DNA of 64,000 bases from Methylocystis sp. (GTDB lineage Bacteria; Pseudomonadota; Alphaproteobacteria; Rhizobiales; Beijerinckiaceae): positions 7,252-71,251 of the forward strand of contig JBPFDX010000094.1 in NCBI GenBank assembly GCA_051061385.1, written 5' to 3'. The notes under the pieces are model-generated. The model was not told the origin of the DNA. It ran no database searches and saw only the letters and a program-made list of their open reading frames with translations. The translations under genes were made by a program, and so were the position numbers. Positions within the stretch are counted from its first letter, which is position 1; each line of letters starts with the position of its first letter. Below are positions 3,910-37,277 of the stretch, one piece after another.

Positions 3910-4020
3910 ATCTGTCCTTTTGCAGGCGTCTCCTGCTGCGATGCAACAAAGCCGACAATAACCGGAGCGTGGCCGTGTCCACAAGCGTTTCGCCATGAAG
4001 CCTCCGGCGCAAAGCGTCGC

Positions 4021-4045
4021 GGAACAATGGCGAAGCGTCAGAGTT
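4021..4045 (+). promoter_or_regulatory. Putative EcfG/SigT general-stress promoter GGAAC-N17-GTT
   Basis: GGAAC at 4021-4025 and GTT at 4043-4045, about 70 nt upstream of the small ORF at 4117. Confidence 0.5.
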
Positions 4046-4116
4046 TTAGGGCATGCGCCGCCTTCCAAGCCGCGGCTCAGTTTAGGACTGTTCAAAGCGC
4101 TGGGACGGAGGTTTCA

Positions 4117-4191
4117 ATGAATGGCATCATCTATCTCGTCGGGCTTATCGTCGTCGTCATGGCGATTTTATCCTTTGTTGGCCTCCGTTGA
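4117..4191 (+). CDS. 24-aa single-TM small protein MNGIIYLVGLIVVVMAILSFVGLR (not in ORF track)
   Basis: GGAGG RBS, ATG, fully hydrophobic helix, 12 nt upstream of the next gene. Confidence 0.75.
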   Translation: MNGIIYLVGLIVVVMAILSFVGLR

Positions 4192-4203: not shown

Positions 4204-5133
4204 ATGACCGACTTTGCTGAAAGAGGCGTTGACGTCAGGGCCTCGCGCGGAGAGACAGCATCTCTGGCCGGCGTTCGAGAGGCGTCCGCGCGCTCCACGA
4301 ATACCGATTGGGCGGCGATCCTCGCCGGCGCCGCGGTCGCAGGAGCGATCTCCTTCGTGATGAGCGCGTTCGGCACGGCCATCGGGCTCTCGCTGACGTC
4401 GCCCTATGAAGGGTCGTCTTTGGCCGTGCATCTTATCGCGCTCACCCTGTGGATGTTGTGGATCACGGTTTCGAGCTTCGCGCTCGGCGGCTACGTCACG
4501 GGTCGGCTGCGACGGCGCTCGGCGGACGCTACGCCAGAGGAGGTGGAGGTGCGCGACGGGGTCCATGGTCTGGTGCTTTGGGCCGCGGCGATGGTGGTGT
4601 TCGCGCTGATCACCGGCGTTTCAATTTTCCAGCTCGCGAAGACCGGCGTTTCCGCCGTGTTGTCGGACACGGGGAGAACCGAGGCGTCCACGCTCGCGCC
4701 CGCCGTCAATCCGGCCGAGGAGCGCGTCGACTTTCTGTTGCGGGGAGACGGCGACGTGAGCGCCAGAGGCGTGAACATGCCCATGCCCGCGGAATATCCT
4801 CGCGCAATCGTCAAGCGCATCGTTGAGCGCGGCATGGCGTCAGGCGAAATCTCCGGGGAAGATCGCGCTTATCTCGTCAATGTTCTCGCTTCTCGCACCG
4901 GCCTCGCGCCGCAGGACGCGGAAAGGCGCGTCGACGCAACAGCTGAACGCCTGCGCGAAGATAACGCCAAGGCGAAGGAGACCGCGGAGACGGCGCGCAA
5001 GACAGGCATCGTTCTCGCGTTCCTTTCCGCTGCGACAATGCTCATCGGCGGGGCGGCGGCCTGGGCCGGCGCCACCCTGGGCGGACGACACCGCGATGAA
5101 AACATCGGCGTCGCATCGCTCTCTCGCTTCTAA
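4204..5133 (+). CDS. Multi-pass membrane protein of unknown function
   Basis: GGAG RBS; several hydrophobic segments flanking a soluble helical region. Confidence 0.8.
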   Translation: MTDFAERGVDVRASRGETASLAGVREASARSTNTDWAAILAGAAVAGAISFVMSAFGTAIGLSLTSPYEGSSLAVHLIALTLWMLWITVSSFALGGYVTGRLRRRSADATPEEVEVRDGVHGLVLWAAAMVVFALITGVSIFQLAKTGVSAVLSDTGRTEASTLAPAVNPAEERVDFLLRGDGDVSARGVNMPMPAEYPRAIVKRIVERGMASGEISGEDRAYLVNVLASRTGLAPQDAERRVDATAERLREDNAKAKETAETARKTGIVLAFLSAATMLIGGAAAWAGATLGGRHRDENIGVASLSRF

Positions 5134-5145
5134 CAGGAGGTCAAA

Positions 5146-5220
5146 ATGTTCCGGTCTGTCTTGCTCTGGATGCTCGGCGTGCCAATACCGCTCATCATCC
5201 TGCTGGCGCTGTGGAACTAG
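5146..5220 (+). CDS. 24-aa single-TM small protein MFRSVLLWMLGVPIPLIILLALWN (not in ORF track)
   Basis: AGGAGG RBS right after the upstream stop; followed by a terminator. Confidence 0.75.
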   Translation: MFRSVLLWMLGVPIPLIILLALWN

Positions 5221-5238
5221 GCTAGCGCGCGACAGAAG

Positions 5239-5270
5239 AAGCCCCGGAAGATCGCCTTCCGGGGCTTTGT
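5239..5270. terminator. Intrinsic terminator, probably bidirectional
   Basis: 12-bp stem AAGCCCCGGAAG/CTTCCGGGGCTT with 5-nt loop between convergent genes. Confidence 0.8.
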
Positions 5271-6311
5271 TCATGGCTTGCGAGGAATGTCGAAGACCAG
5301 CGGCGCGCCGTCCTCTCCACCGTCGGAGAGGACGAGAAGACGGTAGCGCTCAGGAGTGAGGTCAAGCAGAGCAATCGCCTCCGGCTTGATGGGTTTGTTC
5401 TTCGCGTCTCGGGGCGCATTATCCAGACTGAGAACCGCGAGTTCGCTTGCCTGCGCGACGCCTTGACGAGGCTGATCAATGCGGAAAATCGAATAGCCCG
5501 ACGCCTTCTCGTCGTCGTCCGGACCCACGAGCGCGAGGAGCGCATCGCCGGCGACTGTCAGATCGCGAATGCCGCGCTTCTCTCCTACGCGAATGCGGGA
5601 AACGCTCGGCGCGGCGTCGCCGCCTTCGAACAGCGCTTTCGCGTCAACGCCGACGATCAACGCTTCGCCGTTTGTCGCGGGGCCGCGGAAGCCAAAATAA
5701 AGTCGTCCGTTCTTGGCCGCGACTCCTTCGATGTTGACGCCTTGTCTGCCTTTTAGATGTTTCGCATCTTTCGGCGGATCGTCGCCGAGACAGGCCTGCG
5801 GACCGGCGTGACCGGCGAATTCCGGCAACCGCTCAAAGATGTTCCAGAGCTGGTTTCTGGATTCGATCGCGCGAGGCAGTCGCTTCGCCTGATCGGCGCC
5901 GAAACGAAGCACAGTCCTGTTTGCGAGATGATCCTCGCAGCTCTTTCGCTTCACGGAGTGGGATCCGACAATATAGAAAAATTCGCCGTCTGCTGCGGCG
6001 CCTTCGGCGTCGAATTCGTCGGCTGCGATCGGCAATGAAAAAGGCGCGCCGGGCGTCAATTGCCCGTCCGTCAACCGCACGAAAGCCGCCTCATGTCCTT
6101 CGTCTGTGACGGCGAGGCAGAATTCCGGCGCGTTCGGCGCACAGACAAAGCCGCTGACGTTCGCCCGCTGCTTTGGCTGGGGAAAGACAGAGGGCGAAAC
6201 GCGCCACGGATTCGGCGATTCAGGCGCGACCCGCTCGGTGGCGAAAGCGGCGAAACAAAGCCCGCCGGCCGTCACAGCAATTGCGACAATGCGATTGATG
6301 ATGGAAATCAT
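5271..6311 (-). CDS. Secreted DUF3616-like protein
   Basis: Signal peptide MISIINRIVAIAVTAGGLCFAAFA; YIVGSHSxKR, NIEGVA and GFRGP motifs; only the 3' end of the 1004-aa track ORF is real. Confidence 0.7.
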   Translation of the reverse strand: MISIINRIVAIAVTAGGLCFAAFATERVAPESPNPWRVSPSVFPQPKQRANVSGFVCAPNAPEFCLAVTDEGHEAAFVRLTDGQLTPGAPFSLPIAADEFDAEGAAADGEFFYIVGSHSVKRKSCEDHLANRTVLRFGADQAKRLPRAIESRNQLWNIFERLPEFAGHAGPQACLGDDPPKDAKHLKGRQGVNIEGVAAKNGRLYFGFRGPATNGEALIVGVDAKALFEGGDAAPSVSRIRVGEKRGIRDLTVAGDALLALVGPDDDEKASGYSIFRIDQPRQGVAQASELAVLSLDNAPRDAKNKPIKPEAIALLDLTPERYRLLVLSDGGEDGAPLVFDIPRKP

Positions 6312-9145: not shown

Positions 9146-9158
9146 GTGACTAAGTCGC
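9146..9158. promoter_or_regulatory. Palindromic motif GTGAC-TAA-GTCGC (copy 1 of 4)
   Basis: Identical to the copy upstream of sqr (22105); intergenic, upstream of ORF 9348. Confidence 0.5.
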
Positions 9159-14573: not shown

Positions 14574-14586
14574 GCGACTATGTCAC
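14574..14586. promoter_or_regulatory. Palindromic motif (reverse orientation) GTGAC-ATA-GTCGC (copy 2 of 4)
   Basis: Plus strand reads GCGACTATGTCAC, in the divergent promoter region between the hydrolase and the carbonic anhydrase. Confidence 0.55.
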
Positions 14587-20308: not shown

Positions 20309-20321
20309 GCAGCCCAGTTAT

Positions 20322-20352
20322 ATGCAGAAAACGTAAATTAGCAATAGCGAAT
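20322..20352. promoter_or_regulatory. Putative SqrR/BigR tandem operator A
   Basis: ATGC-N8-TAAATTA-N8-GAAT, 13 bp upstream of the RND adaptor start. Confidence 0.65.
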
Positions 20353-20413
20353 TTAAGATCAGGAAAGGAAAGGACAGGGCGGCGCGGCGCCGCCCGACTT
20401 TCCTTCAGTGGCG

Positions 20414-20650
20414 TCAGCCCCAGAGATTGCACCAGCCGCGCGCGCTGACGGGCCCGCTCACCACGCCGCAGCCCGATGGCGGGTTGAACCAGGAGCAGTT
20501 GGCGCAGCTTTGCCGGCCGTTCGGCGCGCCGCGATAGTCGGCCGCCGATTTGCTCGACTTCGCTTGCGCCGTCGTCGCAGAAAGTCCAGCGGCGGCCGCG
20601 CCCAACAACAACATCAAGGAGCGGCGCGTCGGCGCGCGAAATTCCACCAT
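20414..20650 (-). CDS. High-potential iron-sulfur protein (HiPIP) with Tat signal
   Basis: TRRSLML twin-Arg motif; CANC-x8-C-x12-C with GWC; GGGAGG RBS. Confidence 0.88.
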   Translation of the reverse strand: MVEFRAPTRRSLMLLLGAAAAGLSATTAQAKSSKSAADYRGAPNGRQSCANCSWFNPPSGCGVVSGPVSARGWCNLWG

Positions 20651-20681
20651 TTCAACCTCCCTTGGCAATTCATCCGTTGCC

Positions 20682-20712
20682 GGACGATTCCATTAAATTA
20701 GATGAACGTAAT
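20682..20712. promoter_or_regulatory. Putative SqrR/BigR operator B (one good half)
   Basis: GGAC-N8-TAAATTA-N8-TAAT upstream of the HiPIP gene. Confidence 0.45.
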
Positions 20713-20774
20713 ATACCGTGTTCGCGCCGGCATGAATGCGACATAACGCTCTTTCACGCCTGCGATACGCTCGC

Positions 20775-20803
20775 TTGACAATTATATTCAATAATCATAA
20801 TTT
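20775..20803 (+). promoter_or_regulatory. Sigma70 promoter of the sqrR operon
   Basis: TTGACA-N17-TAATTT. Confidence 0.6.
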
Positions 20804-20816
20804 AGAAAACATGAAT
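20786..20816. promoter_or_regulatory. Putative SqrR/BigR tandem operator C (autoregulatory)
   Basis: ATTC-N8-TAATTTA-N8-GAAT covering the -10 box and start codon. Confidence 0.7.
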
Positions 20817-21170
20817 GTAAAAGCGATTGAGCTCGCGCCGAAAGCTGCGGAGGCCGAGAGCTTTCTAAAGGCTCTGGCCAACCGTCATCGGCTGATGGTG
20901 CTGTGCCAGCTCCACGCGGGCGAGCTGTCGGTGACAAAGCTGCAGGAGGCGATCGGGCTGAGCCAATCGTCGCTGTCGCAGCATCTCGCGCGGCTGCGCG
21001 AGGACAAGCTCGTCAAGACCCGCCGCGAATCCCAGACGATCTACTATTCCCTGGCCGACGGTAACGTCTCACGAATCATCGGACTGCTTTACGAGATGTT
21101 TTGCGCCGAGGAGTGCGGCAAGCCGGCCAAACCGCGCGCGCGCGCAAAATCAAAGGAACTCACGTCATGA
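20811..21170 (+). CDS. sqrR: ArsR-family persulfide-sensing repressor (SqrR/BigR type)
   Basis: LKALANRHRLMVLC (helix-2 Cys), SQSSLSQHLARLR, LYEMFC (helix-5 Cys). Confidence 0.85.
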   Translation: MNVKAIELAPKAAEAESFLKALANRHRLMVLCQLHAGELSVTKLQEAIGLSQSSLSQHLARLREDKLVKTRRESQTIYYSLADGNVSRIIGLLYEMFCAEECGKPAKPRARAKSKELTS

Positions 21171-21367
21171 GCATTGATCGCATCGTTATGGCCTTCGCAG
21201 GCGCCATGATCCTTTTGAGCCTGCTCCTGGCGCAGTTGTTCAGCCCATGGTGGCTCTTGCTTACGGCTTTCGTCGGCGTCAATCTGCTGCAGGCGGCGTT
21301 TACCGGACTCTGCCCGTTAGCGATGGCGCTGAAACGGTTCGGCGCCAGATCAGGCGCCGCTTTCTAG
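21167..21367 (+). CDS. DUF2892 (YgaP-like) membrane protein
   Basis: FVGVNLLQAAFTGLCP motif; ATGA overlap with sqrR. Confidence 0.88.
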   Translation: MSIDRIVMAFAGAMILLSLLLAQLFSPWWLLLTAFVGVNLLQAAFTGLCPLAMALKRFGARSGAAF

Positions 21368-21443: not shown

Positions 21444-22112
21444 ATGCCTTTCGATTGGGTCGACGAAACGCCGTCCTTGCGCAGCCTCGACGCCGCGACG
21501 AAGACCCTTCTGCGCGACTCCGCCGTTCGCAAGCAAATCCCGCGCGGCGCCGTGCTGTTTCGGCCGGGCGACCAATGCGCGCAGTTCCCGCTGATCGTCT
21601 CGGGCACTGTGCGCGTGCAGCGGGTGACCGAGTCGGGCAGGGAAATCGTGCTCTATCGAGTCGGCGAGAATGAAACCTGCATTCTGACCACGGCGTCGCT
21701 GCTTTCGGACGACGCCTACGCCGCTGAAGGCGTCGCCGAGACTGACGTGATCGCCTATGTCGTCCCCGCCGATCGTTTCAACGCGCTGATGAATGCTTCC
21801 GAAAGCTTTCGCGCGCTGGTGTTCAACGGCTACAGCAAGCGTCTCGCGACCTTGATGTCGCGCATCGAGGAAATCGTCTGCACGCGCATCAATGTTCGTT
21901 TGGCGGAACGCCTTCTCGCGCTGCGCGACGCCGGCGACAAGATCGCCGCCACGCAGCAGGCGCTCGCCGCGGATCTCGGCACGGCGCGCGAAGTCGTCGG
22001 CCGCACGCTGAAAGCGTTCGAGCGTTCTGGCTGGGTAAAATTGTCGCGCGGCGGCGCCGAGATCGTCAATCCCGCGGCGTTGCGTTCGCTGTGCGCCGCA
22101 CAGCGTGACTAA
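21444..22112 (+). CDS. Crp/Fnr-family transcriptional regulator
   Basis: cNMP-like domain (GREIVLYRV, GETCILT) and HTH (TQQALAADLGTAREVVGRTL). Confidence 0.92.
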   Translation: MPFDWVDETPSLRSLDAATKTLLRDSAVRKQIPRGAVLFRPGDQCAQFPLIVSGTVRVQRVTESGREIVLYRVGENETCILTTASLLSDDAYAAEGVAETDVIAYVVPADRFNALMNASESFRALVFNGYSKRLATLMSRIEEIVCTRINVRLAERLLALRDAGDKIAATQQALAADLGTAREVVGRTLKAFERSGWVKLSRGGAEIVNPAALRSLCAAQRD

Positions 22113-22117
22113 GTCGC
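22105..22117. promoter_or_regulatory. Palindromic motif GTGAC-TAA-GTCGC (copy 3 of 4)
   Basis: Centred on the Crp/Fnr stop codon, 90 nt upstream of sqr. Confidence 0.6.
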
Positions 22118-22207
22118 GGACATGCGCGCGACAAGCGTGCATGTCGTGACAAAATGAGCGCAACCGTCAGCGCAAACTTTGTGCGCGCAAGCGCATGGGA
22201 GGATTGA

Positions 22208-23491
22208 ATGGCTCACATCGTTATCATGGGCGCCGGGATCGGCGGCGTCGCCGCCGCGATCGAAGTTCGCGAGGGACTCTCGAAGCAACATCAGGTCACG
22301 GTCGTCTCTGACCTTGAGAATTTTCAGTTCACGCCGTCCAATCCGTGGCTCGCGGTGCAATGGCGCAAGCCCGAGGAGCTCAAGGTTCCGCTCGCGCCGG
22401 TGTTCAAGAAGAAGAACATCGGCTTCATTCCGGTCGGCGCGAAGCGCGTTATGCCCGAAGAGAACCGCCTCGAGCTCGCGAATGGCGAGAGCGTCGCCTA
22501 CGACTATCTCGTCATCGCCACCGGACCGAAGCTCGCGTTCGAAGAATTGCCCGGACTTGGACCTCACGGCGGGCACACGCATTCGATCTGCACGCTGCAG
22601 CATGCCGAGATCGCGTCGAAGGCCTATGAGGAGTTCTGCAAGAATCCCGGCCCGATCATCATCGGCGCGGCGCCCGGCGTCTCATGCTTTGGTCCGGCGT
22701 ATGAATACGCCATGATTCTTTCCACCGATCTGCGTCGCCGCGGCATCCGCGACAAGGTGCCGATGACCTACATCACGTCCGAGCCCTATATTGGGCATCT
22801 TGGTTTGGGCGGCGTCGGCGACACCAAGGGTATGCTCGAATCGGCGTTCCGCGACCGCGACATCAAATGGATCGTCAACGCCAAGACGACCGCGATCGAA
22901 CCCGGGCTGCTCAAATGCGCCGAGCTCGACGACCAGGGGCAGGTCAAGAAGGAGCACGAAGTGCCCTTCAAATTCGCCATGGTGATGCCCGCCTTCAAAG
23001 GCGTCGATGCGCTGATGGGCGTCGAGGGGCTGGTCAATCCTCGCGGCTTCGTCATCATCGACAAGAATCAGCGCAATCCGAAATATCCGAATGTGTTCGG
23101 CGTCGGCGTCTGCGTCGCGATCCCGCCCGTCGAGGCGACGCCGGTGCCCACCGGCACGCCGAAGACCGGCTATATGATCGAGTCCATGGTGACCGCCACG
23201 GCGCATAACATCGCCGCGCTGATCGCCGGGCGTGAAGCCAAGGAAGAAGGCACGTGGAACGCGGTTTGCTTGGCGGATTTCGGCGACAAGGGCGTCGCCT
23301 TCGTCGCCAAACCGCAGATTCCGCCGCGTAACGTCAATTGGTCAAGCGAAGGGCGTTGGGTGCATCTCGCGAAGATCGCCTATGAGAAATACTTCCTTCG
23401 CAAGGTTCGTAAGGGGCAGAGCGAGCCTGTATATGAGCGGTACATCATGAAGCTGCTCGGCATCGAACGACTGCGCCGCGCTCTGTCATAA
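22208..23491 (+). CDS. sqr: Sulfide:quinone oxidoreductase, type I (SqrA-like)
   Basis: GAGIGG FAD motif, FTPSNPW, SICT, SCFGPAYE, CVAIPP...PKTGYMIESM, AVCLADFG (three conserved Cys). Confidence 0.93.
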   Translation: MAHIVIMGAGIGGVAAAIEVREGLSKQHQVTVVSDLENFQFTPSNPWLAVQWRKPEELKVPLAPVFKKKNIGFIPVGAKRVMPEENRLELANGESVAYDYLVIATGPKLAFEELPGLGPHGGHTHSICTLQHAEIASKAYEEFCKNPGPIIIGAAPGVSCFGPAYEYAMILSTDLRRRGIRDKVPMTYITSEPYIGHLGLGGVGDTKGMLESAFRDRDIKWIVNAKTTAIEPGLLKCAELDDQGQVKKEHEVPFKFAMVMPAFKGVDALMGVEGLVNPRGFVIIDKNQRNPKYPNVFGVGVCVAIPPVEATPVPTGTPKTGYMIESMVTATAHNIAALIAGREAKEEGTWNAVCLADFGDKGVAFVAKPQIPPRNVNWSSEGRWVHLAKIAYEKYFLRKVRKGQSEPVYERYIMKLLGIERLRRALS

Positions 23492-23528
23492 CAGGGCCCC
23501 GCCGCCATGCAATGCTGGAGGAGAGTCG

Positions 23529-23687
23529 ATGCGGACTAGGCCGTTAAGGCGCGAGATCCTCCTCGCGCTGGCGTTTAAATTGCTGGCGCTCATCGCGCTC
23601 TACGTCCTGTTTTTCGGCCCCGCGCATCGTATCAAGGTGACGCCGGCGCAGATGGCGGAAGCGCTTTCCGCCGCCGCGCCGCGCTGA
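23529..23687 (+). CDS. cydP: Cytochrome bd small subunit CydP-like, 52 aa (not in ORF track)
   Basis: MRTRPLRREILLALAFKLLALIALYVLFFGP; GGAGGAG RBS; directly precedes cydA. Confidence 0.75.
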   Translation: MRTRPLRREILLALAFKLLALIALYVLFFGPAHRIKVTPAQMAEALSAAAPR

Positions 23688-23720
23688 CGCCCGTCAGCTG
23701 ACTTCTGTCAGGAGCCCAAT

Positions 23721-25295
23721 ATGTTCGAACTCGACGTCGTCACCCTCTCGCGCCTGCAATTTGCGCTGACGGCGCTGTATCACTTCCTCTTCGTGCCGCT
23801 GACGCTGGGTCTCGCGCTGCTGCTCGCGATCATGGAAAGCGTCTATGTGATGACGGGTCGAACCGTCTGGCGCGATGCGACGCAGTTCTGGGGCACGCTG
23901 TTTGGCATCAACTTCGCCATGGGCGTCGCCACCGGCGTCACGATGGAGTTCCAGTTCGGCACCAACTGGGCCTATTACTCGCATTACGTCGGCGACATCT
24001 TCGGCGCGCCGCTCGCCATCGAGGGCCTGATGGCCTTCTTCCTCGAGGCGACCTTCGTCGGCCTGTTCTTCTTTGGCTGGAAACGACTGAGCAAGGTGCA
24101 GCATCTCGCTGTCACCTGGCTCGTCGCGCTCGGCGCCAATTTCTCGGCGCTGTGGATTCTCGTCGCGAACGCCTGGATGCAGAATCCGGTCGGCGCGGCG
24201 TTCAATCCACAGACGATGCGCATGGAGCTGACGTCCTTCACCGAGGTGCTGTTCAATCCCGTGGCGCAATCGAAATTCGTGCACACGGTGAGCGCCGGCT
24301 ATGTCACGGGCGCGATGTTCGTCATGTCGATTGGCGCCTATTTCCTTTTGAACCGCCGCCACGTCGACATCGCCCGCCGCTCGCTGACGGTGGCGGCGAG
24401 CTTCGGGCTCGCCTCAGCGCTTTCGGTCGTCGTGCTCGGCGATGAGAGCGGCTATACGGCGGGCGAGAACCAGAAGATGAAGATCGCCGCGATCGAGGCC
24501 ATGTGGGAGACGGAGCCGCCGCCCGCGTCTTTCACGCTCTTTGGTTTCCCCGATCTCAAGAGCGAAACGACGAAAGACGAGATCAGAATACCGTGGATCC
24601 TGGGGCTGATCGCCACACGCTCGCTCGATAAGCCCGTCGAAGGCGTGAAGGCGCTCGTCCAACGTTCCGAGGAGCGTATCCGCAACGGCATGGCCGGCTA
24701 TCAGTGGCTCGCGAAGGAAGGCGGCCATCCGAACGCCGTCGTTCCGCCGGAACTCGAGGCGTCGATGCGCGACGTCGGCCATTCGCTGCTCGTCAAGCGC
24801 ATCCGGCCGGACATCGAGAACGCCACCGACGCGCAGATCCACGAAGCGGCGATGTCGACGATCCCCGACGTGCCGGTGTTGTTCTGGTCGTTCCGAATCA
24901 TGGTGGCGCTGGGCTTCTATTTCATCGCGCTCTTCGCCATCGCGTTTTATCTGTCGAGCCGGCGACGCTGCGGCAGGCCCTGGTTCCTGCGCATGGTCAT
25001 GTATAGCCTGCCCTTGCCCTGGGTCGCCGCCGAACTCGGTTGGATCGTCGCTGAATACGGCCGGCAGCCGTGGATCATCGACGGAACGATGCCGACATTC
25101 CTCGGCGTCTCGAACATCCCTGCATCGAATGTCGCGGCGAGCCTCGCGGCCTTCGTGCTGTTCTACAGCGCGCTCGCCATTATCGATGTCGCGCTCATCG
25201 TCAAATATGTGCGCATCGGACCGCGTTCGGAGGCTGAGCCCCAGACCACCGGCGCGCCGGTGCTCCCCGCGCCTGCGCCGGCGCAAACGCGATAG
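23721..25295 (+). CDS. cydA: Cytochrome bd ubiquinol oxidase subunit I
   Basis: ALYHFLFVP heme His, FQFGTNW, QKMKIAAIEAMW Q-loop, EYGRQPW. Confidence 0.97.
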   Translation: MFELDVVTLSRLQFALTALYHFLFVPLTLGLALLLAIMESVYVMTGRTVWRDATQFWGTLFGINFAMGVATGVTMEFQFGTNWAYYSHYVGDIFGAPLAIEGLMAFFLEATFVGLFFFGWKRLSKVQHLAVTWLVALGANFSALWILVANAWMQNPVGAAFNPQTMRMELTSFTEVLFNPVAQSKFVHTVSAGYVTGAMFVMSIGAYFLLNRRHVDIARRSLTVAASFGLASALSVVVLGDESGYTAGENQKMKIAAIEAMWETEPPPASFTLFGFPDLKSETTKDEIRIPWILGLIATRSLDKPVEGVKALVQRSEERIRNGMAGYQWLAKEGGHPNAVVPPELEASMRDVGHSLLVKRIRPDIENATDAQIHEAAMSTIPDVPVLFWSFRIMVALGFYFIALFAIAFYLSSRRRCGRPWFLRMVMYSLPLPWVAAELGWIVAEYGRQPWIIDGTMPTFLGVSNIPASNVAASLAAFVLFYSALAIIDVALIVKYVRIGPRSEAEPQTTGAPVLPAPAPAQTR

Positions 25296-25309
25296 GAAAG
25301 GCGACAGCG

Positions 25310-26449
25310 ATGTTCGACTATATGACGCTTCGCCTCATCTGGTGGGCGCTGCTGGGCGTTCTGCTCGTAGGCTTCGCCGTCCTCGACGGTTTCGACATCG
25401 GCGTCGCCATGCTGCATCCCTTCGTCGCCCGCAACGACACGCAGCGGCGCGTGACGCTCAATACGATCGGCCCCGTGTGGGAAGGCAATCAGGTCTGGTT
25501 CATCCTCGGCGGCGGCGCCGCCTTCGCGGCCTGGCCGCCGCTTTACGCGGTGTCCTTCTCCGGCTTCTACCTCGCGATGCTGCTGGTGCTGATCGGCCTC
25601 ATTTTGCGGCCGGTGGCGATCACCTTCCGCGACAAAAGACCGGAGAGCGGCTGGCGCGAGACCTGGGACTGGCTCTTCTTCGCTTCGGGCGCCGTGCCCG
25701 CGCTGATCTTCGGCGTCGCCTTCGGCAATCTTCTGCAGGGCGTTCCCTTTCATTTCGATCAGCAGCTGCGCGCCACTTATGAGGGCGGCCTCCTCGGCCT
25801 GCTCAACCCCTTCGCCTTGCTCTGCGGCCTCGTCAGCGTGACGATGCTCGCGATGCAGGGCGCCGCCTGGCTGAGCGTGAAGAGCGAGGGCGAGGTCGCC
25901 GTCCGAGCCCGGCGATATGGCGCCGTCGCGGCGATCCTGCTGGTTCTGCTCATCTCCGGCGCCGGAATTTGGACGATGCTCGGGGTGGAGGGATTCCGGA
26001 TAGACGGCGTCATCGAACATGCCGGCCCGTCCAATCCGCTCGCCAAGACGGTGACGCGAGAAACTGGCGCCTGGTTCGATAATTACCGGGCCTACCCCTG
26101 GATGATCGCGGCCCCGGCCGCCGCCTACATCGGCGCTCTGATCGCGGCGCTGGCCCTCGCGCTTTCGGCGAGAAGGATCGCGCTTCTCGCCAGCAGCCTT
26201 TCGGTTGCGGGGGTTGCGACCATGGCGGGCTTCAGCATGTTCCCGTTCCTGCTGCCGTCGTCGACTCACCCGAGCCAGAGCCTGACGGTCTGGGACGCTT
26301 CGTCGAGCAAAGCGACGCTCTCGCTGATGCTCGTCGCGGTGATCGTCTTTCTGCCGATCGTTCTTACCTACACGAGCTGGGTCTACTACGTGCTGCGCGG
26401 CGCCGTCAGCGAGGCGGCGATCCGTCGCGGCGACGACTATTATTATTGA
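25310..26449 (+). CDS. cydB: Cytochrome bd ubiquinol oxidase subunit II
   Basis: LDGFDIG, IGPVWEGNQVW, SLTVWDASSS. Confidence 0.97.
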   Translation: MFDYMTLRLIWWALLGVLLVGFAVLDGFDIGVAMLHPFVARNDTQRRVTLNTIGPVWEGNQVWFILGGGAAFAAWPPLYAVSFSGFYLAMLLVLIGLILRPVAITFRDKRPESGWRETWDWLFFASGAVPALIFGVAFGNLLQGVPFHFDQQLRATYEGGLLGLLNPFALLCGLVSVTMLAMQGAAWLSVKSEGEVAVRARRYGAVAAILLVLLISGAGIWTMLGVEGFRIDGVIEHAGPSNPLAKTVTRETGAWFDNYRAYPWMIAAPAAAYIGALIAALALALSARRIALLASSLSVAGVATMAGFSMFPFLLPSSTHPSQSLTVWDASSSKATLSLMLVAVIVFLPIVLTYTSWVYYVLRGAVSEAAIRRGDDYYY

Positions 26450-26466
26450 GCGGGAGAACACGAAGC

Positions 26467-26574
26467 ATGTGGTATTTTTCCTGGATATTGGGTCTGGGGC
26501 TCGCCTGCGCCTTCGCCATTCTCAACGCCATGTGGCTTGAGCTAGATGACGACGACGAGCGGCGGAAGAAATAG
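26467..26574 (+). CDS. cydX: Cytochrome bd small subunit CydX, 35 aa (not in ORF track)
   Basis: MWYFSWILGLGLACAFAILNAMWLE. Confidence 0.92.
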   Translation: MWYFSWILGLGLACAFAILNAMWLELDDDDERRKK

Positions 26575-26588
26575 GCGGCTCCCGGAGC

Positions 26589-26601
26589 GAGACATAGTCG
26601 C
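26589..26601. promoter_or_regulatory. Palindromic motif GAGAC-ATA-GTCGC (copy 4 of 4)
   Basis: Intergenic, 61 nt upstream of the second DUF2892 gene. Confidence 0.5.
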
Positions 26602-26662: not shown

Positions 26663-26848
26663 ATGGAAGCCAATATTGGAAGGACCGATCGCATCATCCG
26701 GATCGTCGTCGGTCTCTTGTTGCTCAGTCTCGTTTTCATCGGGCCGCAGACCTTATGGGGGCTCGTCGGCCTTATCCCGCTGACGACGGCGTTCGTGAAC
26801 TTCTGCCCCGCCTATAAGCTGCTCGGCATGGATACGCTCGGCAAATAG
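26663..26848 (+). CDS. DUF2892 (YgaP-like) membrane protein
   Basis: NIGRTDRIIRIVVG...FCPAYKLLG; GGAG RBS. Confidence 0.88.
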   Translation: MEANIGRTDRIIRIVVGLLLLSLVFIGPQTLWGLVGLIPLTTAFVNFCPAYKLLGMDTLGK

Positions 26849-28617: not shown

Positions 28618-29166
28618 ATGATCAAAAAATTCCTGTTCGCCGCGGCTTGCGGGCTGTCGCTATTCGCCGGCGCCGCCGCCTTCGCCGAGGACGATGACGA
28701 TGATCAGGGCGAGCACATGATGCACGAGCAGCATATGAAGATGTCGCCGAAGATGGGCGACACGCGCCAGGAGGTCGATGTTCCATCGCCGATGCGCACG
28801 CAAATGCTCTCTCACATGCGCGGCCACGCCGAGGCGATCGCCGAGATCCTCGCCGCGCTCGGCAAGGGCGACGGCGCGGCGGCGGCCAAAGTCGCCGACG
28901 CGCGCCTCGGCATGGCGTCTTCGGGCGCAGCGGCGTGCAAGCCGAACGCCAAGAGCGGCGAACTCGGCGATATGCCGGCGATGATGGCGCGACACATGCC
29001 CGACGAGATGCGCGCGCTCGGTCTGACGATGCACGAACAGGCGAGCAAATTCGCCCAGGAGGCGGCCAAGATCGGGCCCGGCGGCGACATGCGTCCCGCG
29101 CTTGCCGAATTGTCGCAAGTCGTGCAAGCCTGCAACGCCTGTCACGCCGCCTATCGCCTCGATTAG
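28618..29166 (+). CDS. Periplasmic class II (c'-type) cytochrome c with acidic and His/Met-rich N-terminus
   Basis: Signal peptide; C-terminal CNACH; helical body. Confidence 0.8.
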   Translation: MIKKFLFAAACGLSLFAGAAAFAEDDDDDQGEHMMHEQHMKMSPKMGDTRQEVDVPSPMRTQMLSHMRGHAEAIAEILAALGKGDGAAAAKVADARLGMASSGAAACKPNAKSGELGDMPAMMARHMPDEMRALGLTMHEQASKFAQEAAKIGPGGDMRPALAELSQVVQACNACHAAYRLD

Positions 29167-29257
29167 CGCTCGCGTGCGGCGCTCTAAATTATGTGAACGA
29201 TCACGTCATCTGGATTTGGGCGATTCGCCCAAATCCAGCGTGATCTAGGAGCCGACC

Positions 29258-30043
29258 GTGCGCATCGCGACCTGGAACGTCAATTCCGTAAGGCAGCGTC
29301 TCGCGCCGCTTCTCGCCTTTCTGCGGGACGCTGCGCCTGACGCGCTCTGCCTGCAGGAAACCAAGTGCGAGGATCACGCTTTCCCGCGGCTTGAGATCGA
29401 AGACGCGGGATATAACGTCGCCGTCCACGGGCAGAAGGGGTTCAACGGCGTCGCGATCCTGTCGGAGTCGCCGCTGCAGGACGTCGTCCTCGGCCTGCCA
29501 GGCTTCGACGGCGAGGCGCAGTCGCGCTACATCGAGGCGGTTCTCGCCGACGGCGCCGGCGGCGTGATGCGCGTCGCGTCCATCTATGCGCCAAACGGCA
29601 ATCCGCCGGATACGCAGAAATACTCTTACAAACTCGCCTTCATGGAGGCGCTGACGCGACATGCCGACGCGCTGCTGCGTCTCGAAGAGCCGACGGTTCT
29701 CGCCGGCGACTACAACGTCATTCCCGATGCGCGCGACGTCTATGAAGCCTCGGCGTGGCTTGGCGACGCATTATTTTTGCCGCAGACTCGCGCGGCCTAT
29801 CAGCGCCTGATCAATCTCGGCTACGCCGATGCGCTGCGGGCGACGTCGGACGAAGGCGGGCTCTACACGTTCTGGGATTATCAGGCCGGCGCCTGGCAGA
29901 AGAACAAGGGCCTTCGCATCGACCACCTTCTGCTCTCGCCGCGCGCAGCGGATCGGCTGGCGCGCGTGGAGATCGTCAAGTCGATGCGCGCCGGCGACAA
30001 GCCCTCCGATCACGTCGCGATCTACGCCGATTTCGCTGCGTGA
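29258..30043 (+). CDS. xth: Exodeoxyribonuclease III
   Basis: IATWNVNS, LQETK, GDYN, RIDHLL, SDH; GTG start. Confidence 0.95.
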   Translation: MRIATWNVNSVRQRLAPLLAFLRDAAPDALCLQETKCEDHAFPRLEIEDAGYNVAVHGQKGFNGVAILSESPLQDVVLGLPGFDGEAQSRYIEAVLADGAGGVMRVASIYAPNGNPPDTQKYSYKLAFMEALTRHADALLRLEEPTVLAGDYNVIPDARDVYEASAWLGDALFLPQTRAAYQRLINLGYADALRATSDEGGLYTFWDYQAGAWQKNKGLRIDHLLLSPRAADRLARVEIVKSMRAGDKPSDHVAIYADFAA

Positions 30044-30837
30044 TCGAAAAGCCCAAGCGCGCCGCCGCTGCGCCAGAGCACATAGAGCGCCACCGCGAAG
30101 ACCACCGTGGCGAAGACGGCGCTCAGCGCGCCGCGCATTTTCGACAGTCGCCGCGCCACCGCGGCGCCGATCAGCCCGCCGAACGCGCCGCCGATCACCA
30201 GCGTTCCGGCAAGCTCCCATTCGACGAGGTCTGAATAGGCGTAGTTCGCCGCCGTCGTGACCGCAAAGGCGGCGACGGCGACGAGCGACGAGCCGATGGC
30301 GTTCAGGATCGGCATGTCGGAAGCGAACATCAGCCCGGGCACGATCAGGAAGCCGCCGCCGATCCCGAAGAAGCCGGAAAGCGCGCCCGCCGTCACGCCG
30401 GCGCCCGCGAGCCGCGGAAAATTCTCGCGGTTGAGTCTTACCGAGGGATATCCCAAGGAGCCCCGACGGCGCAGCATGAGATAGGACACGACGATCATCA
30501 GCAGCGCGAAGAGCGCGAGCAGCTTCTCGCCATTGATGATCTTGCCGAGCGTCGATCCTGCGAAGGCGCCGCCGATGCCGAAAAGCGCGAAAACGGAAGC
30601 GCAGCGCCATTTGATAGTGCGCGCGCGCGCATGATTGGCGAGACTCATCAGCGCATTGACCGCGACCGCCGCCGCGCTCGAGCCGATCGCGACATGCGGA
30701 TTCGGCACGCCAACGAAATAGACGAGAAGCGGCACGGCAAGCACCGAGCCGCCGCCGCCGACCAGGCCGAGCGTAAAGCCGACGAGGGCGCCGGAGATCA
30801 GGCCGAGCACGGCGTCGAGGGGAAGAGCCGTCAGCAT
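30022..30837 (-). CDS. TauE/SafE sulfite exporter
   Basis: GLVGGGGSVLAVP, GFFGIGGGFLIVP repeats. Confidence 0.9.
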   Translation of the reverse strand: MLTALPLDAVLGLISGALVGFTLGLVGGGGSVLAVPLLVYFVGVPNPHVAIGSSAAAVAVNALMSLANHARARTIKWRCASVFALFGIGGAFAGSTLGKIINGEKLLALFALLMIVVSYLMLRRRGSLGYPSVRLNRENFPRLAGAGVTAGALSGFFGIGGGFLIVPGLMFASDMPILNAIGSSLVAVAAFAVTTAANYAYSDLVEWELAGTLVIGGAFGGLIGAAVARRLSKMRGALSAVFATVVFAVALYVLWRSGGALGLFDHAAKSA

Positions 30838-30867
30838 GTCAGCATGTCGCTCCTTCGCGCGTGTAAT

Positions 30868-30898
30868 ATTAGCACTTGCTTATTTAGCTATAGCGCAT
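30868..30898. promoter_or_regulatory. Putative SqrR/BigR tandem operator D
   Basis: ATTA-N8-TTATTTA-N8-GCAT in the divergent tauE/pdo promoter region. Confidence 0.65.
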
Positions 30899-30977
30899 AT
30901 ATCTGACGGCGCAAGCACGAAAGGCGAAAGCACGAAGGAAGAGAAGCGCTTGAGCGCTGCACTTGAAGGAGAGATCG

Positions 30978-31865
30978 ATGTCGCAGGCGCCGTCAGTGAG
31001 GGCCTTCTTCGACGAGCCCACCAATACGATCACCTATATTGTCAGCGATCCCGCCACTAAGCGTGCGGCGATCGTCGACCCCGTGCTCGACTATGACCCG
31101 GCGAGCGGCGTCGCAGATTCGCATTCCGTCGACGCCATCCTCGCCGAGGCGGCGCGGGAGGGTTTGACAATCGACTGGGTGCTTGAGACCCACGCGCACG
31201 CCGACCACCTTTCCGCCGCCCAGATCGTCAAGGCGGCGACGGGGGCGAAGATCGGCATCGGCGAACACATCGACAAGGTCCAGAAGCTCTTCAAGCCGGT
31301 GTTCGGCGCTGACGACCTGAAGGCCGACGGCGGCTGCTTCGACCACCTCTTCAAGGACGGCGAGCGGTTCAAGATCGGCGAGATCGAGGCCGAAACGATC
31401 TACACGCCCGGCCACACGCCGGCCGACGTCGCCTACAGGATCGGCGATGCGGTGTTTGTCGGCGACACGCTGTTCATGCCTGACTATGGGACGGCGCGCG
31501 CGGATTTCCCGGGCGGCGACGCGCATGCGCTCTATCGGTCGATCCGGCGAATTCTCTCGCTGCCGCCGCAGACGCGGCTCTTCATGTGCCACGACTACAA
31601 GGCGCCGGGACGCGACGCCTACGCCTGGGAGACGACGGTCGCGGAGCAGCGCGCCAAGAACGTGCAGATCAGAGACGGCGTCAGCGAAGAGGAATTCGTG
31701 GCCCAGCGCCAGAAGCGGGACAAGGGGCTCGCCGCCCCGCGTCTGCTGCTGCCGTCGATTCAAGTGAACATTCGCGCCGGCAAGTTTCCGCCGCCGCAGG
31801 AGGGCGGCGCGCGCTTCCTCCGCATCCCGGTGAAGTTCACGGGCGCCGCGGCGCGCGCCGGCTGA
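30978..31865 (+). CDS. Persulfide dioxygenase (MBL fold, Blh/SdoA type)
   Basis: DPVLDYD, ETHAHADHLS, TPGHTPA, GDTLFMPDYGTARADFPGG, CHDY, LLLPSIQVN. Confidence 0.92.
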   Translation: MSQAPSVRAFFDEPTNTITYIVSDPATKRAAIVDPVLDYDPASGVADSHSVDAILAEAAREGLTIDWVLETHAHADHLSAAQIVKAATGAKIGIGEHIDKVQKLFKPVFGADDLKADGGCFDHLFKDGERFKIGEIEAETIYTPGHTPADVAYRIGDAVFVGDTLFMPDYGTARADFPGGDAHALYRSIRRILSLPPQTRLFMCHDYKAPGRDAYAWETTVAEQRAKNVQIRDGVSEEEFVAQRQKRDKGLAAPRLLLPSIQVNIRAGKFPPPQEGGARFLRIPVKFTGAAARAG

Positions 31866-36722: not shown

Positions 36723-36787
36723 GCCAGGCGGCGACTCGGATCCGGCGCTGCCGCACAGCGCCGGTCGTCCTTCAATCGGCTCGCAAT

Positions 36788-36830
36788 AAAACAGGCCCCG
36801 TGGCGCGGAAGCTCACGGGGCCTTTTGCTT
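36788..36830. terminator. Bidirectional intrinsic terminator
   Basis: AAAAC-AGGCCCCGTG...CACGGGGCCT-TTTG: 10-bp stem with T-runs on both strands. Confidence 0.85.
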
Positions 36831-37145
36831 CTCAGGTCGAAGCAAGCCTGGATTGTCCAGTCTGGGGTCGGGCGTCCGATGCTTGGCCTTTGCGTTCGGC
36901 CGCCCGGAAGGATGTCAAATGTCTTCAGAAGATGGACGGACCAAGCAGCTGTTCTTGACCGCCCAGTGACCGGAACGAAACGCCGGTCAAATGGAATGAC
37001 CCGGTGGCGTCATGCTCCTCTCGCAACTTAGTTGCCCGGTTCGGCCCACAACAGGGGTTTTGCAGGCCTTCCATAATCGCCTTCGCATCGAGGTCCCGCC
37101 CGAGCGAGCCTGCCGACCATGCTGCCAGATCGACAAGTGCGATGT
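36789..37145 (-). ncRNA. Candidate large structured ncRNA of unrecognised class
   Basis: Nested long-range helices closing 37121 onto 36833, many internal hairpins, upstream TTGACC-N17-CATCCT and downstream terminator; no credible ORF. Confidence 0.55.
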
Positions 37146-37152
37146 ATCGAAA

Positions 37153-37181
37153 AGGATGAACCCGGTTTCGGATTCGGTCAA
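37153..37181 (-). promoter_or_regulatory. Putative sigma70 promoter for the ncRNA candidate
   Basis: Minus strand TTGACC (37181-37176), 17 nt, CATCCT (37158-37153). Confidence 0.4.
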
Positions 37182-37230
37182 GAGCGTTCCGCTCTCAAAA
37201 AAGCGGCAAGCACGGTTGCGCACAGAGCAT

Positions 37231-37255
37231 TTGACGTATATAGATATCTTTATAT
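37231..37255 (+). promoter_or_regulatory. sahR promoter -35 (TTGACG) and SahR operator GTATATAG-ATAT-CTTTATAT
   Basis: 20-bp AT-rich near-palindrome (37236-37255) matching the recalled alphaproteobacterial SahR box, just upstream of sahR-metF-metH. Confidence 0.75.
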
Positions 37256-37277
37256 CTCACGGAGCAACCATAAGGCC

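What the first reader, a model, noticed from the sequence alone, without database searches (positions are those of the whole stretch)
22105..26574. sqr directly followed by cydP-cydA-cydB-cydX: a minimal H2S:O2 respiratory operon
Seen: only 37 nt separate the sqr stop from cydP, with no terminator-like hairpin visible; cydP and cydX are unlisted small ORFs. Known: SQR reduces quinone, and cytochrome bd is a sulfide-resistant quinol oxidase. Inference: co-transcription yields a two-enzyme chain that removes sulfide, and conserves some energy, when heme-copper oxidases are inhibited.
Basis: partly seen in the sequence, partly recalled or inferred. Interest (0 to 1): 0.7.

Follow-up and report, generated by a model that had tools for sequence, protein, structure and literature searches.

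The report
Sulfide reductase fused to bd-oxidase operon
In this methane-oxidising Methylocystis the gene for the enzyme that takes electrons from toxic hydrogen sulfide sits directly in front of the genes for a sulfide-tolerant oxygen-reducing enzyme, an arrangement kept in dozens of related genomes, which hard-wires a coupling that was already proposed from physiology in other bacteria.

Summary
A type I sulfide:quinone reductase gene (22208-23491) is followed after 37 nt, with no terminator, by cydP, cydA, cydB and cydX (23529-26574). All five identities pass family or structure-based tests.

The window is from Methylocystis. In a survey of 78 genomes of the genus, all 43 that carry this SQR type have sqr directly upstream of cydPABX. 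Eight more have a second SQR type 2-4 kb upstream on the same strand. The same sqr-cydP-cydA-cydB order arose separately in some Zetaproteobacteria, according to a CydA tree. It is absent next to 65 of the nearest non-Methylocystis SQR genes and in 18 other genomes of the family.

The unit lies in a persulfide-response island: an SqrR-like repressor, a Crp-family regulator, YgaP-like proteins, TauE and a persulfide dioxygenase. A conserved 13-bp palindrome brackets it on both sides.

RNA data are compatible with co-transcription but do not prove it. Whether sulfide or low oxygen is the inducer is open.

The functional idea, SQR feeding a sulfide-resistant bd oxidase through the quinone pool, is already in the literature. 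The operon-level fusion was not found described. This is a new variant of a known kind, of moderate interest.

The parts
20775..20810 (+). Promoter-like TTGACA-17-TAATTT with an AT-rich CTAAATTAG-type box in front of the SqrR-like gene. Similar boxes lie at 20316-20360, 20687-20718, 29185-29200 and 30860-30905.
   Evidence: Sequence read. Assignment as the SqrR operator is inference.
20811..21170 (+). SqrR/BigR-type ArsR-family persulfide-sensing repressor. The ORF is listed from 20736; the probable start is 20811.
   Evidence: Best solved relative is Rhodobacter capsulatus SqrR 6O8K (E 4e-24), with both sensing cysteines aligned (LMVLC, EMFC). NF040642 BigR scores 92 bits, below its cut-off of 155.
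21164..21367 (+). YgaP-like transmembrane protein
   Evidence: PF11127, 48.2 bits
21381..22112 (+). Crp/Fnr-family regulator without an FNR cysteine cluster. The probable start is 21444.
   Evidence: PF00027 plus PF13545. Nearest structure is the uncharacterised 3DV8. A homologue lies directly before cydP in a second Methylocystis clade and upstream of sqr in a Zetaproteobacterium.
22105..22117 (.). 13-bp palindrome GTGACTAAGTCGC overlapping the crp stop codon, 91 nt before the sqr start
   Evidence: Four sites in the window against 0.44 expected; 0 of 100 shuffles reach four. Invariant in 14 aligned loci. Present at this place in 17 of 17 sqr-linked Methylocystis loci.
22113..22150 (+). Strong stem-loop between crp and sqr, not followed by a U-run
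   Evidence: Fold of 22100-22215: -50.1 kcal/mol, z -2.5, 1 of 200 shuffles as stable
22208..23491 (+). Type I sulfide:quinone oxidoreductase (SQR)
23492..23528 (+). 37-nt spacer with a GGAGGAG ribosome-binding site and no terminator
   Evidence: The spacer varies in length across loci and has no conserved element.
23529..23687 (+). CydP, putative small subunit of bd oxidase
   Evidence: NF045611, 56.9 bits against a cut-off of 29.6
23721..25295 (+). CydA, cytochrome bd-I type subunit I with a long Q-loop
   Evidence: PF01654. In the alignment to 6RKO, His19, Glu99, His186, Met393 and Glu445 are conserved.
25310..26449 (+). CydB, subunit II
   Evidence: TIGR00203, 448 bits
26446..26574 (+). 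CydX small subunit. The probable true start is 26467.
   Evidence: TIGR02106, 70.2 bits; match begins at residue 8
26589..26601 (.). Second copy of the palindrome (GAGACATAGTCGC), 15 nt after cydX and 62 nt before the next gene
   Evidence: Found at this place in 14 of the 17 loci.
26663..26848 (+). Second YgaP-like transmembrane protein; first gene of the next unit
   Evidence: PF11127, 79.6 bits
26937..28553 (+). HMA-DsbD_2-cupredoxin-LysM fusion protein
30022..30837 (-). TauE-like sulfite/anion exporter
   Evidence: Identified here from its sequence only: it was not scanned against Pfam, and its sole NCBIfam hit is a weak MamO match (24.4 bits). Conserved next to the cluster. PF01925 TauE is annotated at the corresponding place in the Zetaproteobacterial island.
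30963..31865 (+). Persulfide dioxygenase, matching the dioxygenase half of Blh
   Evidence: NF040641 positions 136-421, E 1.5e-116

Best explanation
sqr-cydP-cydA-cydB-cydX is one expression unit inside a persulfide-response island of Methylocystis.

Proposed mechanism:
1. SQR oxidises H2S to sulfane sulfur and reduces ubiquinone.
2. The bd-I type oxidase encoded immediately downstream re-oxidises the quinol with O2. It is not poisoned by sulfide as heme-copper oxidases are.
3. Sulfide removal can therefore continue, and a modest proton-motive force (about 1 H+ per electron, by charge separation without pumping) is kept while the six heme-copper oxidases, and probably the copper methane monooxygenase, are inhibited.
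4. The sulfane sulfur is passed to the neighbouring persulfide dioxygenase, rhodanese and TauE/RND export genes.

Expression probably starts from a promoter tied to the 13-bp palindrome at 22105, plus read-through from the SqrR-controlled sqrR-ygaP-crp unit. The palindrome is a likely site for the adjacent Crp-family regulator.

Shown: gene identities, catalytic residues, spacing, conservation and independent recurrence. Inferred: co-transcription, the inducing signal, sulfide resistance of this particular bd oxidase, and energy conservation.
For: Identities and catalytic residues.

Spacing: same strand, gaps of 37, 33, 14 and -4 nt, no terminator.

Conservation in the genus: all 43 Methylocystis genomes with this SQR type have cydA about 210-470 nt downstream on the same strand. 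Eight further genomes with a second SQR type have it 2.2-3.6 kb upstream of cydA on the same strand. Fifteen named Methylocystis loci keep the whole order sqrR-ygaP-crp-sqr-cydPABX-ygaP-HMA.

Independent recurrence: sqr-cydP-cydA-cydB occurs in Mariprofundaceae-like genomes. Their CydA falls in its own clade, away from the Methylocystis linked clade (100/100 support).

The palindrome lies before sqr and after cydX but never between sqr and cydP in 17 loci. A Methylocystis genome without sqr has a one-mismatch copy 78 nt before cydP.

The SqrR-like repressor has both sensing cysteines.

A second, unlinked cydAB and six COX1 genes are in the same genome.

RNA:
- In a true RNA run of a related strain, sqr (about 7) and cyd (about 3-15) share a low level, while both flanking units are about 105-113.
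- In pure-culture RNA runs of a close relative, contigs start at the sqrR 5' end and run unbroken through crp, sqr and cydP into cydA. The promoter gap upstream is uncovered.

Literature: bd oxidases are sulfide-insensitive and sulfide-induced in E. coli, M. tuberculosis and A. baumannii, and an SQR-CydAB link through the quinone pool has been predicted (PMC7315123). bd has been proposed as the sulfide-insensitive oxidase of Methylocystis bryophila (PMC12319191).
Against: There is no direct proof of a single transcript. No contig crosses the sqr-cydP junction in the true metatranscriptomes. The junction-spanning contig in run X1 comes from a run that behaves like DNA. The pure-culture assemblies hold contigs of 30-80 kb, so contiguity there discriminates poorly.

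No SqrR-type AT-rich box lies directly before sqr in this clade. The conserved partner of cydPABX is the Crp-family regulator, whose signal is unknown, so induction could follow oxygen or redox state rather than sulfide.

cydPABX exists without sqr in one Methylocystis genome. M. bryophila-like genomes keep sqr and cyd apart. The linkage is therefore dispensable.

A promoter inside the 3' end of sqr cannot be excluded.
Confidence: 0.7

Rival explanations
1. The ancestral unit is crp-palindrome-cydPABX, a low-oxygen or redox-controlled high-affinity oxidase, as with Anr-controlled cydPABX in Burkholderia. On this view sqr merely landed between the regulator and the oxidase. cydPABX responds to microoxia, possibly from its own promoter, and any benefit for sulfide oxidation is secondary.
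For: - In the second Methylocystis clade, crp is directly followed by cydPABX, with sqr and a tolC-like gene further upstream.
- A genome without sqr keeps cydPABX with a palindrome-like site 78 nt upstream.
- cydPABX of B. cenocepacia is a fitness factor under oxygen depletion, alongside a Crp-Fnr regulator (PMC9104464).
- No SqrR-type box lies before sqr in this clade.
Against: - Even in the second clade, crp-cydPABX stays inside the sqrR-ygaP-sqr cluster on the same strand.
- The sqr-cydP-cydAB order arose again in Zetaproteobacteria, within a sulfide island.
- The regulator has no FNR cysteine cluster (sequence).
- Sulfide and low oxygen co-occur in nature, so the two readings overlap.
Confidence: 0.2
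2. The linked bd oxidase does not serve respiration from sulfide. It acts mainly as a protective oxygen or peroxide scavenger, or a redox valve, for the sulfur enzymes of the island. Energy conservation from sulfide would then be negligible.
For: bd oxidases are known to protect against oxidative and nitrosative stress (cited in PMC12810054). The island carries many thiol and metal handling genes.
Against: Any quinol oxidised by a bd oxidase generates membrane potential; this is established bioenergetics of the family. SQR is the only quinone reductase in the island, and it sits directly in front of the oxidase genes.
Confidence: 0.07
3. The adjacency is a neutral accident of gene order, inherited by descent within one genus, with no functional link.
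For: Within Methylocystis the 43 linked genomes are one inherited event. 65 of the nearest non-Methylocystis SQR loci and 18 other genomes of the family show no linkage.
Against: - The order arose independently in Zetaproteobacteria.
- A further sqr-ygaP-X-cioAB arrangement occurs in another alphaproteobacterial family.
- The spacer is tight and terminator-free.
- The biochemical link through quinone is direct.
Confidence: 0.03

Closest known systems
Sulfide-induced cytochrome bd (cydAB/cydABX) of E. coli, M. tuberculosis and Acinetobacter baumannii, working with SQR through the quinone pool (PMC7315123; Forte 2016 and Korshunov 2016 as cited there and in PMC10205796)
   Same: The same two enzymes and the same proposed electron path: H2S to SQR to quinone to bd oxidase to O2. 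The bd oxidase is refractory to sulfide.
   Different: In those organisms sqr (where present) and cydAB are separate loci, linked only by regulation. Here sqr is the first gene of the cyd operon, in an island with its own regulators.
cydPABX operon of Burkholderia cenocepacia H111 (PMC9104464, PMC11742914)
   Same: The same four-gene oxidase operon, including the small CydP gene before cydA. A Crp/Fnr-family regulator is involved.
   Different: There is no sqr, and the role described is survival without oxygen. CydP was said to be confined to Burkholderiales. Here it passes the family cut-off in an alphaproteobacterium and in a Zetaproteobacterial locus.
SqrR/BigR/CstR/FisR-controlled sulfide detoxification clusters (sqr, pdo/blh, tauE), e.g. 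Rhodobacter capsulatus SqrR-sqr and the Xylella/Agrobacterium BigR operon
   Same: An ArsR-type persulfide sensor with the two cysteines, plus SQR, a Blh-type dioxygenase, TauE and YgaP-like proteins.
   Different: As I recall them, those clusters carry no terminal oxidase. This one adds cydPABX and a second, Crp-family regulator.
SQR plus sulfide-insensitive ba3 oxidase in Methylacidiphilum fumariolicum SolV, and the SQR-ba3 supercomplex of Aquifex aeolicus (PMC10205796)
   Same: A methanotroph, or a sulfide oxidiser, pairs SQR with a dedicated sulfide-tolerant terminal oxidase.
   Different: That oxidase is a heme-copper ba3 type and the genes are not in one operon. No physical complex is shown here.
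Acidithiobacillus ferrooxidans sulfur-grown respiratory chain (PMC2754497)
   Same: The closest solved SQR (3SZ0). sqr, cydAB and cyoABCD are co-upregulated on sulfur.
   Different: sqr (AFE_1792) and cydAB (AFE_0955-0954) are far apart in that genome.

Membership tests
Type I sulfide:quinone oxidoreductase | Full-length similarity to solved type I SQRs, with an N-terminal FAD-binding GxGxxG motif | tested here: met
   3SZ0 E 2.6e-160 over residues 2-424; Aquifex 3HYV E 8e-120; motif IMGAGIGG present
Type I sulfide:quinone oxidoreductase | Three conserved cysteines (Cys128, Cys160, Cys356 in A. ferrooxidans numbering) | tested here: met
   HSICT, VSCFGPAYE and NAVCLAD align with the 3SZ0 cysteines
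Type I sulfide:quinone oxidoreductase | Sulfide-dependent quinone reduction | not testable with these tools
   Needs an enzyme assay
Cytochrome bd-I type quinol oxidase (CydABX) | CydA with the heme ligands His19, His186 and Met393, plus Glu99/Glu445 and a long Q-loop | tested here: met
   Alignment to E. coli 6RKO over 4-503, all five residues conserved, same length class
Cytochrome bd-I type quinol oxidase (CydABX) | CydB and CydX encoded directly downstream | tested here: met
   TIGR00203, 448 bits; TIGR02106, 70.2 bits
Cytochrome bd-I type quinol oxidase (CydABX) | Resistance of O2 reduction to sulfide | not testable with these tools
   Known for E. coli bd-I and bd-II (cited in PMC10205796, PMC12319191). 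Inferred here.
CydP (NF045611) | Small membrane protein encoded just before cydA that scores above the family cut-off | tested here: met
   56.9 bits against 29.6. Relatives: 44.9 bits in the sqr-less Methylocystis genome; 38.3 and 28.4 bits in two Zetaproteobacterial loci.
Single operon sqr-cydPABX | One transcript covering sqr through cydX | tested here: inconclusive
   No terminator. Contigs of pure-culture RNA runs cross the junction, but those assemblies are contiguous nearly everywhere. No crossing contig in the true metatranscriptomes.
SqrR/BigR persulfide-sensing repressors | ArsR fold with the two sensing cysteines (Cys41 and Cys107 of SqrR) | tested here: met
   6O8K E 4e-24; both cysteines aligned
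SqrR/BigR persulfide-sensing repressors | Equivalog-level match to BigR (NF040642) | tested here: not met
   92 bits against a cut-off of 155. It is a relative, not a BigR equivalog.
FNR-type oxygen sensors | N-terminal cysteine cluster for a [4Fe-4S] centre | tested here: not met
   No such cluster in the Crp-family protein (sequence). NF008365 Fnr scores only 17 bits.

The most novel reading that the evidence does not exclude
The Crp-family regulator encoded just upstream senses sulfide, persulfide or over-reduction of the quinone pool. Through the 13-bp palindrome it switches on a dedicated sulfide-respiring branch (sqr-cydPABX plus the flanking units). This would let Methylocystis draw growth-supporting energy from H2S when methane oxidation is blocked. 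CydP might act as the piece that docks SQR to the oxidase, as in the Aquifex SQR-oxidase supercomplex.
Probability: 0.15. Interest if true: 0.65.

Novelty: new variant of a known kind. Interest (0 to 1): 0.42.

Why it matters
Aerobic methanotrophs live where methane and sulfide rise together, and sulfide strongly inhibits methane oxidation. A recent study of Methylocystis bryophila could only guess that its bd oxidase is the sulfide-insensitive oxidase.

The arrangement here gives genomic backing for that guess. In most Methylocystis species the oxidase genes are physically tied to sqr, inside a persulfide-sensing island. It also names a concrete, testable pair: the linked against the unlinked cydAB copy, in strains that are already cultured.

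Two further points follow. The small subunit CydP is not confined to Burkholderiales. And a candidate regulator-operator pair for the unit is now defined. The biochemical concept itself is not new.

Tried and rejected
- Run X1, labelled metatranscriptomic, has a perfect 1322-nt contig across sqr-cydP-cydA. I rejected it as RNA evidence. Its depth is flat (about 9-11) over a small RNA that reaches about 60,000 in the true RNA run X3, and it holds a 101-kb contig.
- True metatranscriptomes X2 and X4-X7 gave only scattered short contigs, none across the junction.
- The published SqrR operator ATTC-N8-GAAT (recalled from memory) is not enriched in the window: 13 hits with one mismatch against 22 expected.
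- I first guessed that the coded family 'f37' was Gallionellaceae. DNA comparison with named loci gave no close match. Names on the nearest proteins point to Zetaproteobacteria/Mariprofundaceae.
- Two named Mariprofundales genomes, M. micogutta and a MAG, have the sulfide island without cyd.
- Literature searches for an sqr-cyd operon found papers that list both genes, but none that describes them as adjacent.
- M. bryophila supplementary expression data show its SQR next to TolC and its bd oxidase elsewhere, so they do not bear on this arrangement.
Full report
**What is there.** The ORF list and sequence show five genes on the + strand:

| Gene | Coordinates | Gap to next gene |
|---|---|---|
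| sqr | 22208-23491 | 37 nt |
| cydP | 23529-23687 | 33 nt |
| cydA | 23721-25295 | 14 nt |
| cydB | 25310-26449 | 4-nt overlap |
| cydX | 26446-26574 | – |

The 37-nt sqr-cydP gap carries a GGAGGAG ribosome-binding site. It has no terminator-like site, and its fold is no more stable than shuffles (z +0.52).

**Identities.** All five hold up.
- SQR aligns end to end with the A. ferrooxidans type I SQR structure (3SZ0, E 2.6e-160). The FAD motif and the three catalytic cysteines are conserved.
- CydA aligns over residues 4-503 with E. coli bd-I CydA (6RKO, E 1e-201). His19, Glu99, His186, Met393 and Glu445 are conserved, and the Q-loop is long.
- CydB (TIGR00203, 448 bits), CydX (TIGR02106, 70.2 bits) and CydP (NF045611, 56.9 bits against a cut-off of 29.6) all pass curated cut-offs.
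- The CydX match starts at residue 8, so the real start is probably the ATG at 26467.

**Setting.** The window is from Methylocystis; the nearest SQR (97% identical) is in M. silviterrae FS. Upstream, on the same strand, lie three genes:
- An ArsR-family regulator. Its best solved relative is the persulfide sensor SqrR of Rhodobacter capsulatus (6O8K, E 4e-24), and both sensing cysteines are aligned.
- A YgaP-like membrane protein.
- A Crp/Fnr-family regulator with no FNR cysteine cluster and no characterised close relative.

Downstream lie a second YgaP-like protein, an HMA-DsbD_2-cupredoxin-LysM fusion and an unassigned 182-aa protein. Then come a TauE-like exporter and a Blh-type persulfide dioxygenase.

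The genome has a single SQR, a second unlinked cydAB without cydP (CydA 67% identical), and six heme-copper oxidase subunit I genes.

**How conserved is the adjacency?**
- In 78 Methylocystis genomes, 59 have an SQR.
- All 43 whose SQR is at least 82% identical to this one have cydA about 210-470 nt downstream on the same strand. That is the room cydP takes.
- Fifteen named loci keep the whole order sqrR-ygaP-crp-sqr-cydPABX-ygaP-HMA.
- A second Methylocystis SQR type (61-69% identical) occurs in 16 genomes. In eight of them it lies 2.2-3.6 kb upstream of cydA on the same strand. Two I inspected read sqrR-ygaP-ygaP-sqr-tolC-crp-cydP-cydA-cydB-cydX. The other eight are unlinked or unresolved, including an M. 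bryophila-like genome.
- One Methylocystis genome without sqr keeps cydPABX alone.

Outside the genus:
- None of 65 of the nearest non-Methylocystis SQR loci has cyd within 7 kb.
- None of 18 other SQR-bearing genomes of the family has it linked.
- Among 80 SQR-bearing genomes across the phylum, three have sqr followed within 300 nt by cydA, and one within 2.4 kb. All four are in one coded family. Protein names identify that family as Zetaproteobacteria/Mariprofundaceae.
- Those loci also carry a CydP-like ORF between sqr and cydA (38.3 and 28.4 bits), together with YgaP, TauE and, in one case, a Crp homologue.
- Another alphaproteobacterial genome has sqr-ygaP-X-cioAB on one strand.

**Independent origin.** In a CydA tree:
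- The Methylocystis linked copies form a tight clade (100/100) that includes the sqr-less genome.
- That clade sits inside an alphaproteobacterial group, next to this genome's own second copy.
- The Zetaproteobacterial linked copies sit inside a clade made only of that family.

The linkage therefore arose at least twice. That is the strongest comparative argument for functional coupling.

**Regulatory anatomy.**
- A 13-bp palindrome, GWGAC-WWA-GTCGC, occurs four times in the window: 9146, 14574, 22105 and 26589. The expectation is 0.44, and no shuffle in 100 reaches four.
- The copy at 22105 overlaps the crp stop codon, 91 nt before sqr. It is invariant in 14 aligned loci.
- In 17 Methylocystis loci a copy lies before sqr. 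In 14 of them a second copy lies about 19 nt after cydX. None lies between sqr and cydP.
- The sqr-less genome has a one-mismatch copy 78 nt before cydP. In the second clade a near-copy overlaps the crp stop before cydP.
- The conserved core is therefore crp-palindrome-cydPABX. In this window's clade sqr lies between the palindrome and cydP.
- AT-rich CTAAATTAG-type boxes mark the sqrR promoter (TTGACA-17-TAATTT at 20775-20810) and three or four other intergenic regions of the island. They do not mark the sqr upstream region in this clade. A more divergent Methylocystis clade does have such a box directly before sqr.
- A strong stem-loop (22113-22150, z -2.5) lies between crp and sqr.
- Assigning the palindrome to the Crp-family protein and the boxes to SqrR is inference.

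**RNA.**
- Run X3 is real RNA: a small RNA at 36.7-37.3 kb has depth about 60,000 against about 5 nearby. Run X1 is flat there and behaves like DNA, so its contig across sqr-cydP-cydA was discarded.
- In X3, which holds a related strain, contig depths are about 113 for ygaP-crp, about 7 for sqr, about 3-15 for cyd, and about 105 for ygaP2-HMA and the 182-aa gene. One contig crosses from crp into sqr.
- So sqr and cyd share a level about tenfold below both flanks, and the steps fall near the two palindromes. No contig crosses the sqr-cydP gap, which differs between strains.
- Pure-culture runs of a close relative were laid on its own locus (L120; sqr at 2884-4164, cydA at 4399-5970). There, contigs start at the sqrR 5' end (1484, 1573 or 1682) and run unbroken to 4611 or 4862. 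At that point the assembly forks, probably at sequence shared with the second cydA copy.
- In two of those runs the divergent promoter region upstream is uncovered.
- This is compatible with transcripts crossing the junction. But the assemblies contain contigs of 30-80 kb, so the test is weak.

**Mechanism.**
- SQR reduces quinone with electrons from H2S, and a bd oxidase re-oxidises quinol with O2. These are established properties of the two families.
- bd oxidases of E. coli are insensitive to sulfide. cydAB is induced by sulfide in E. coli, M. tuberculosis and A. baumannii, where a link of SQR and CydAB through the quinone pool has been drawn explicitly (PMC7315123).
- In A. ferrooxidans, sqr, cydAB and cyoABCD rise together on sulfur (PMC2754497).
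- In M. bryophila, H2 oxidation partly resists sulfide, and bd was proposed as the insensitive oxidase (PMC12319191).
- In M. fumariolicum, SQR works with a ba3 oxidase (PMC10205796).
- The likely role here is to keep sulfide removal and a basal proton-motive force going when heme-copper oxidases are blocked.
- That this bd is sulfide-resistant, that the unit is induced by sulfide rather than low oxygen, and that useful energy is conserved are all inferences.

**Novelty.** My searches found no paper describing sqr and cyd as adjacent. The concept is known; the operon-level fusion and its recurrence appear to be new detail. CydP was said to be restricted to Burkholderiales (PMC9104464), but it is present here and in Zetaproteobacteria. 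I rate this a new variant of a known kind, of moderate interest.

Noticed in passing
window 9146-9158, 14574-14586, 22105-22117, 26589-26601: A 13-bp palindrome GWGAC-WWA-GTCGC occurs four times within 17.5 kb (expected 0.44). Genome-wide, copies with the TAA/ATA centre occur only in this island. It is a candidate operator of the adjacent Crp-family regulator.
   Followed up: yes
window 20316-20360, 20687-20718, 20775-20810, 29185-29200, 30860-30905: AT-rich CTAAATTAG-type boxes lie in intergenic regions of the island, one inside the sqrR promoter. A divergent Methylocystis clade has such a box directly before sqr (alignment A1).
   Followed up: partly
window 22113-22150: A strong stem-loop lies between crp and sqr (z -2.5), with no U-run after it. 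It is kept, with some changes, in the near clade and absent in the divergent clade. It could be an attenuator or a processing site.
   Followed up: no
window 23529-23687; L084 4294-4425; L083 4712-4867; L088 6004-6153: CydP, described as confined to Burkholiales-order bacteria (Burkholderiales) in PMC9104464, passes or nearly passes its family cut-off in Methylocystis and in Zetaproteobacterial loci.
   Followed up: partly
L115 and L117 (second Methylocystis clade): An alternative cluster order, sqrR-ygaP-ygaP-sqr-tolC-crp-cydPABX, with an SQR only about 64% identical to the window's. The genus therefore holds two SQR lineages, both tied to cydPABX.
   Followed up: partly
L088 (Methylocystis genome without sqr): cydPABX stands alone after a glutathione S-transferase gene, with a one-mismatch palindrome 78 nt upstream. 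Its CydA nests inside the sqr-linked clade, which suggests loss or relocation.
   Followed up: partly
L113 (Mariprofundus micogutta) and L114 (Mariprofundales MAG): Zetaproteobacterial sulfide islands have the same building blocks as the Methylocystis one (RND pump, YgaP, TauE, rhodaneses, CMD/AhpD, SQR) but lack cyd. This looks like a widely shared island with variable add-ons.
   Followed up: no
window 20414-20668 (- strand): A small Tat-signal protein with a HiPIP/Iro-like cysteine pattern (NF041615, 39.7 bits, below its cut-off) is transcribed divergently from sqrR.
   Followed up: no
window 28618-29166: A 182-aa secreted His/Met-rich protein has no family match. It is conserved in the cluster and is well expressed in RNA run X3 (depth about 107).
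   Followed up: no
window 36738-37271: Very abundant RNA in run X3 (depth about 60,000 against about 5 nearby). I used it to tell RNA runs from DNA-like runs.
   Followed up: partly
run X1: A public run labelled metatranscriptomic behaves like DNA on this genome: flat depth and a 101-kb contig.
   Followed up: yes
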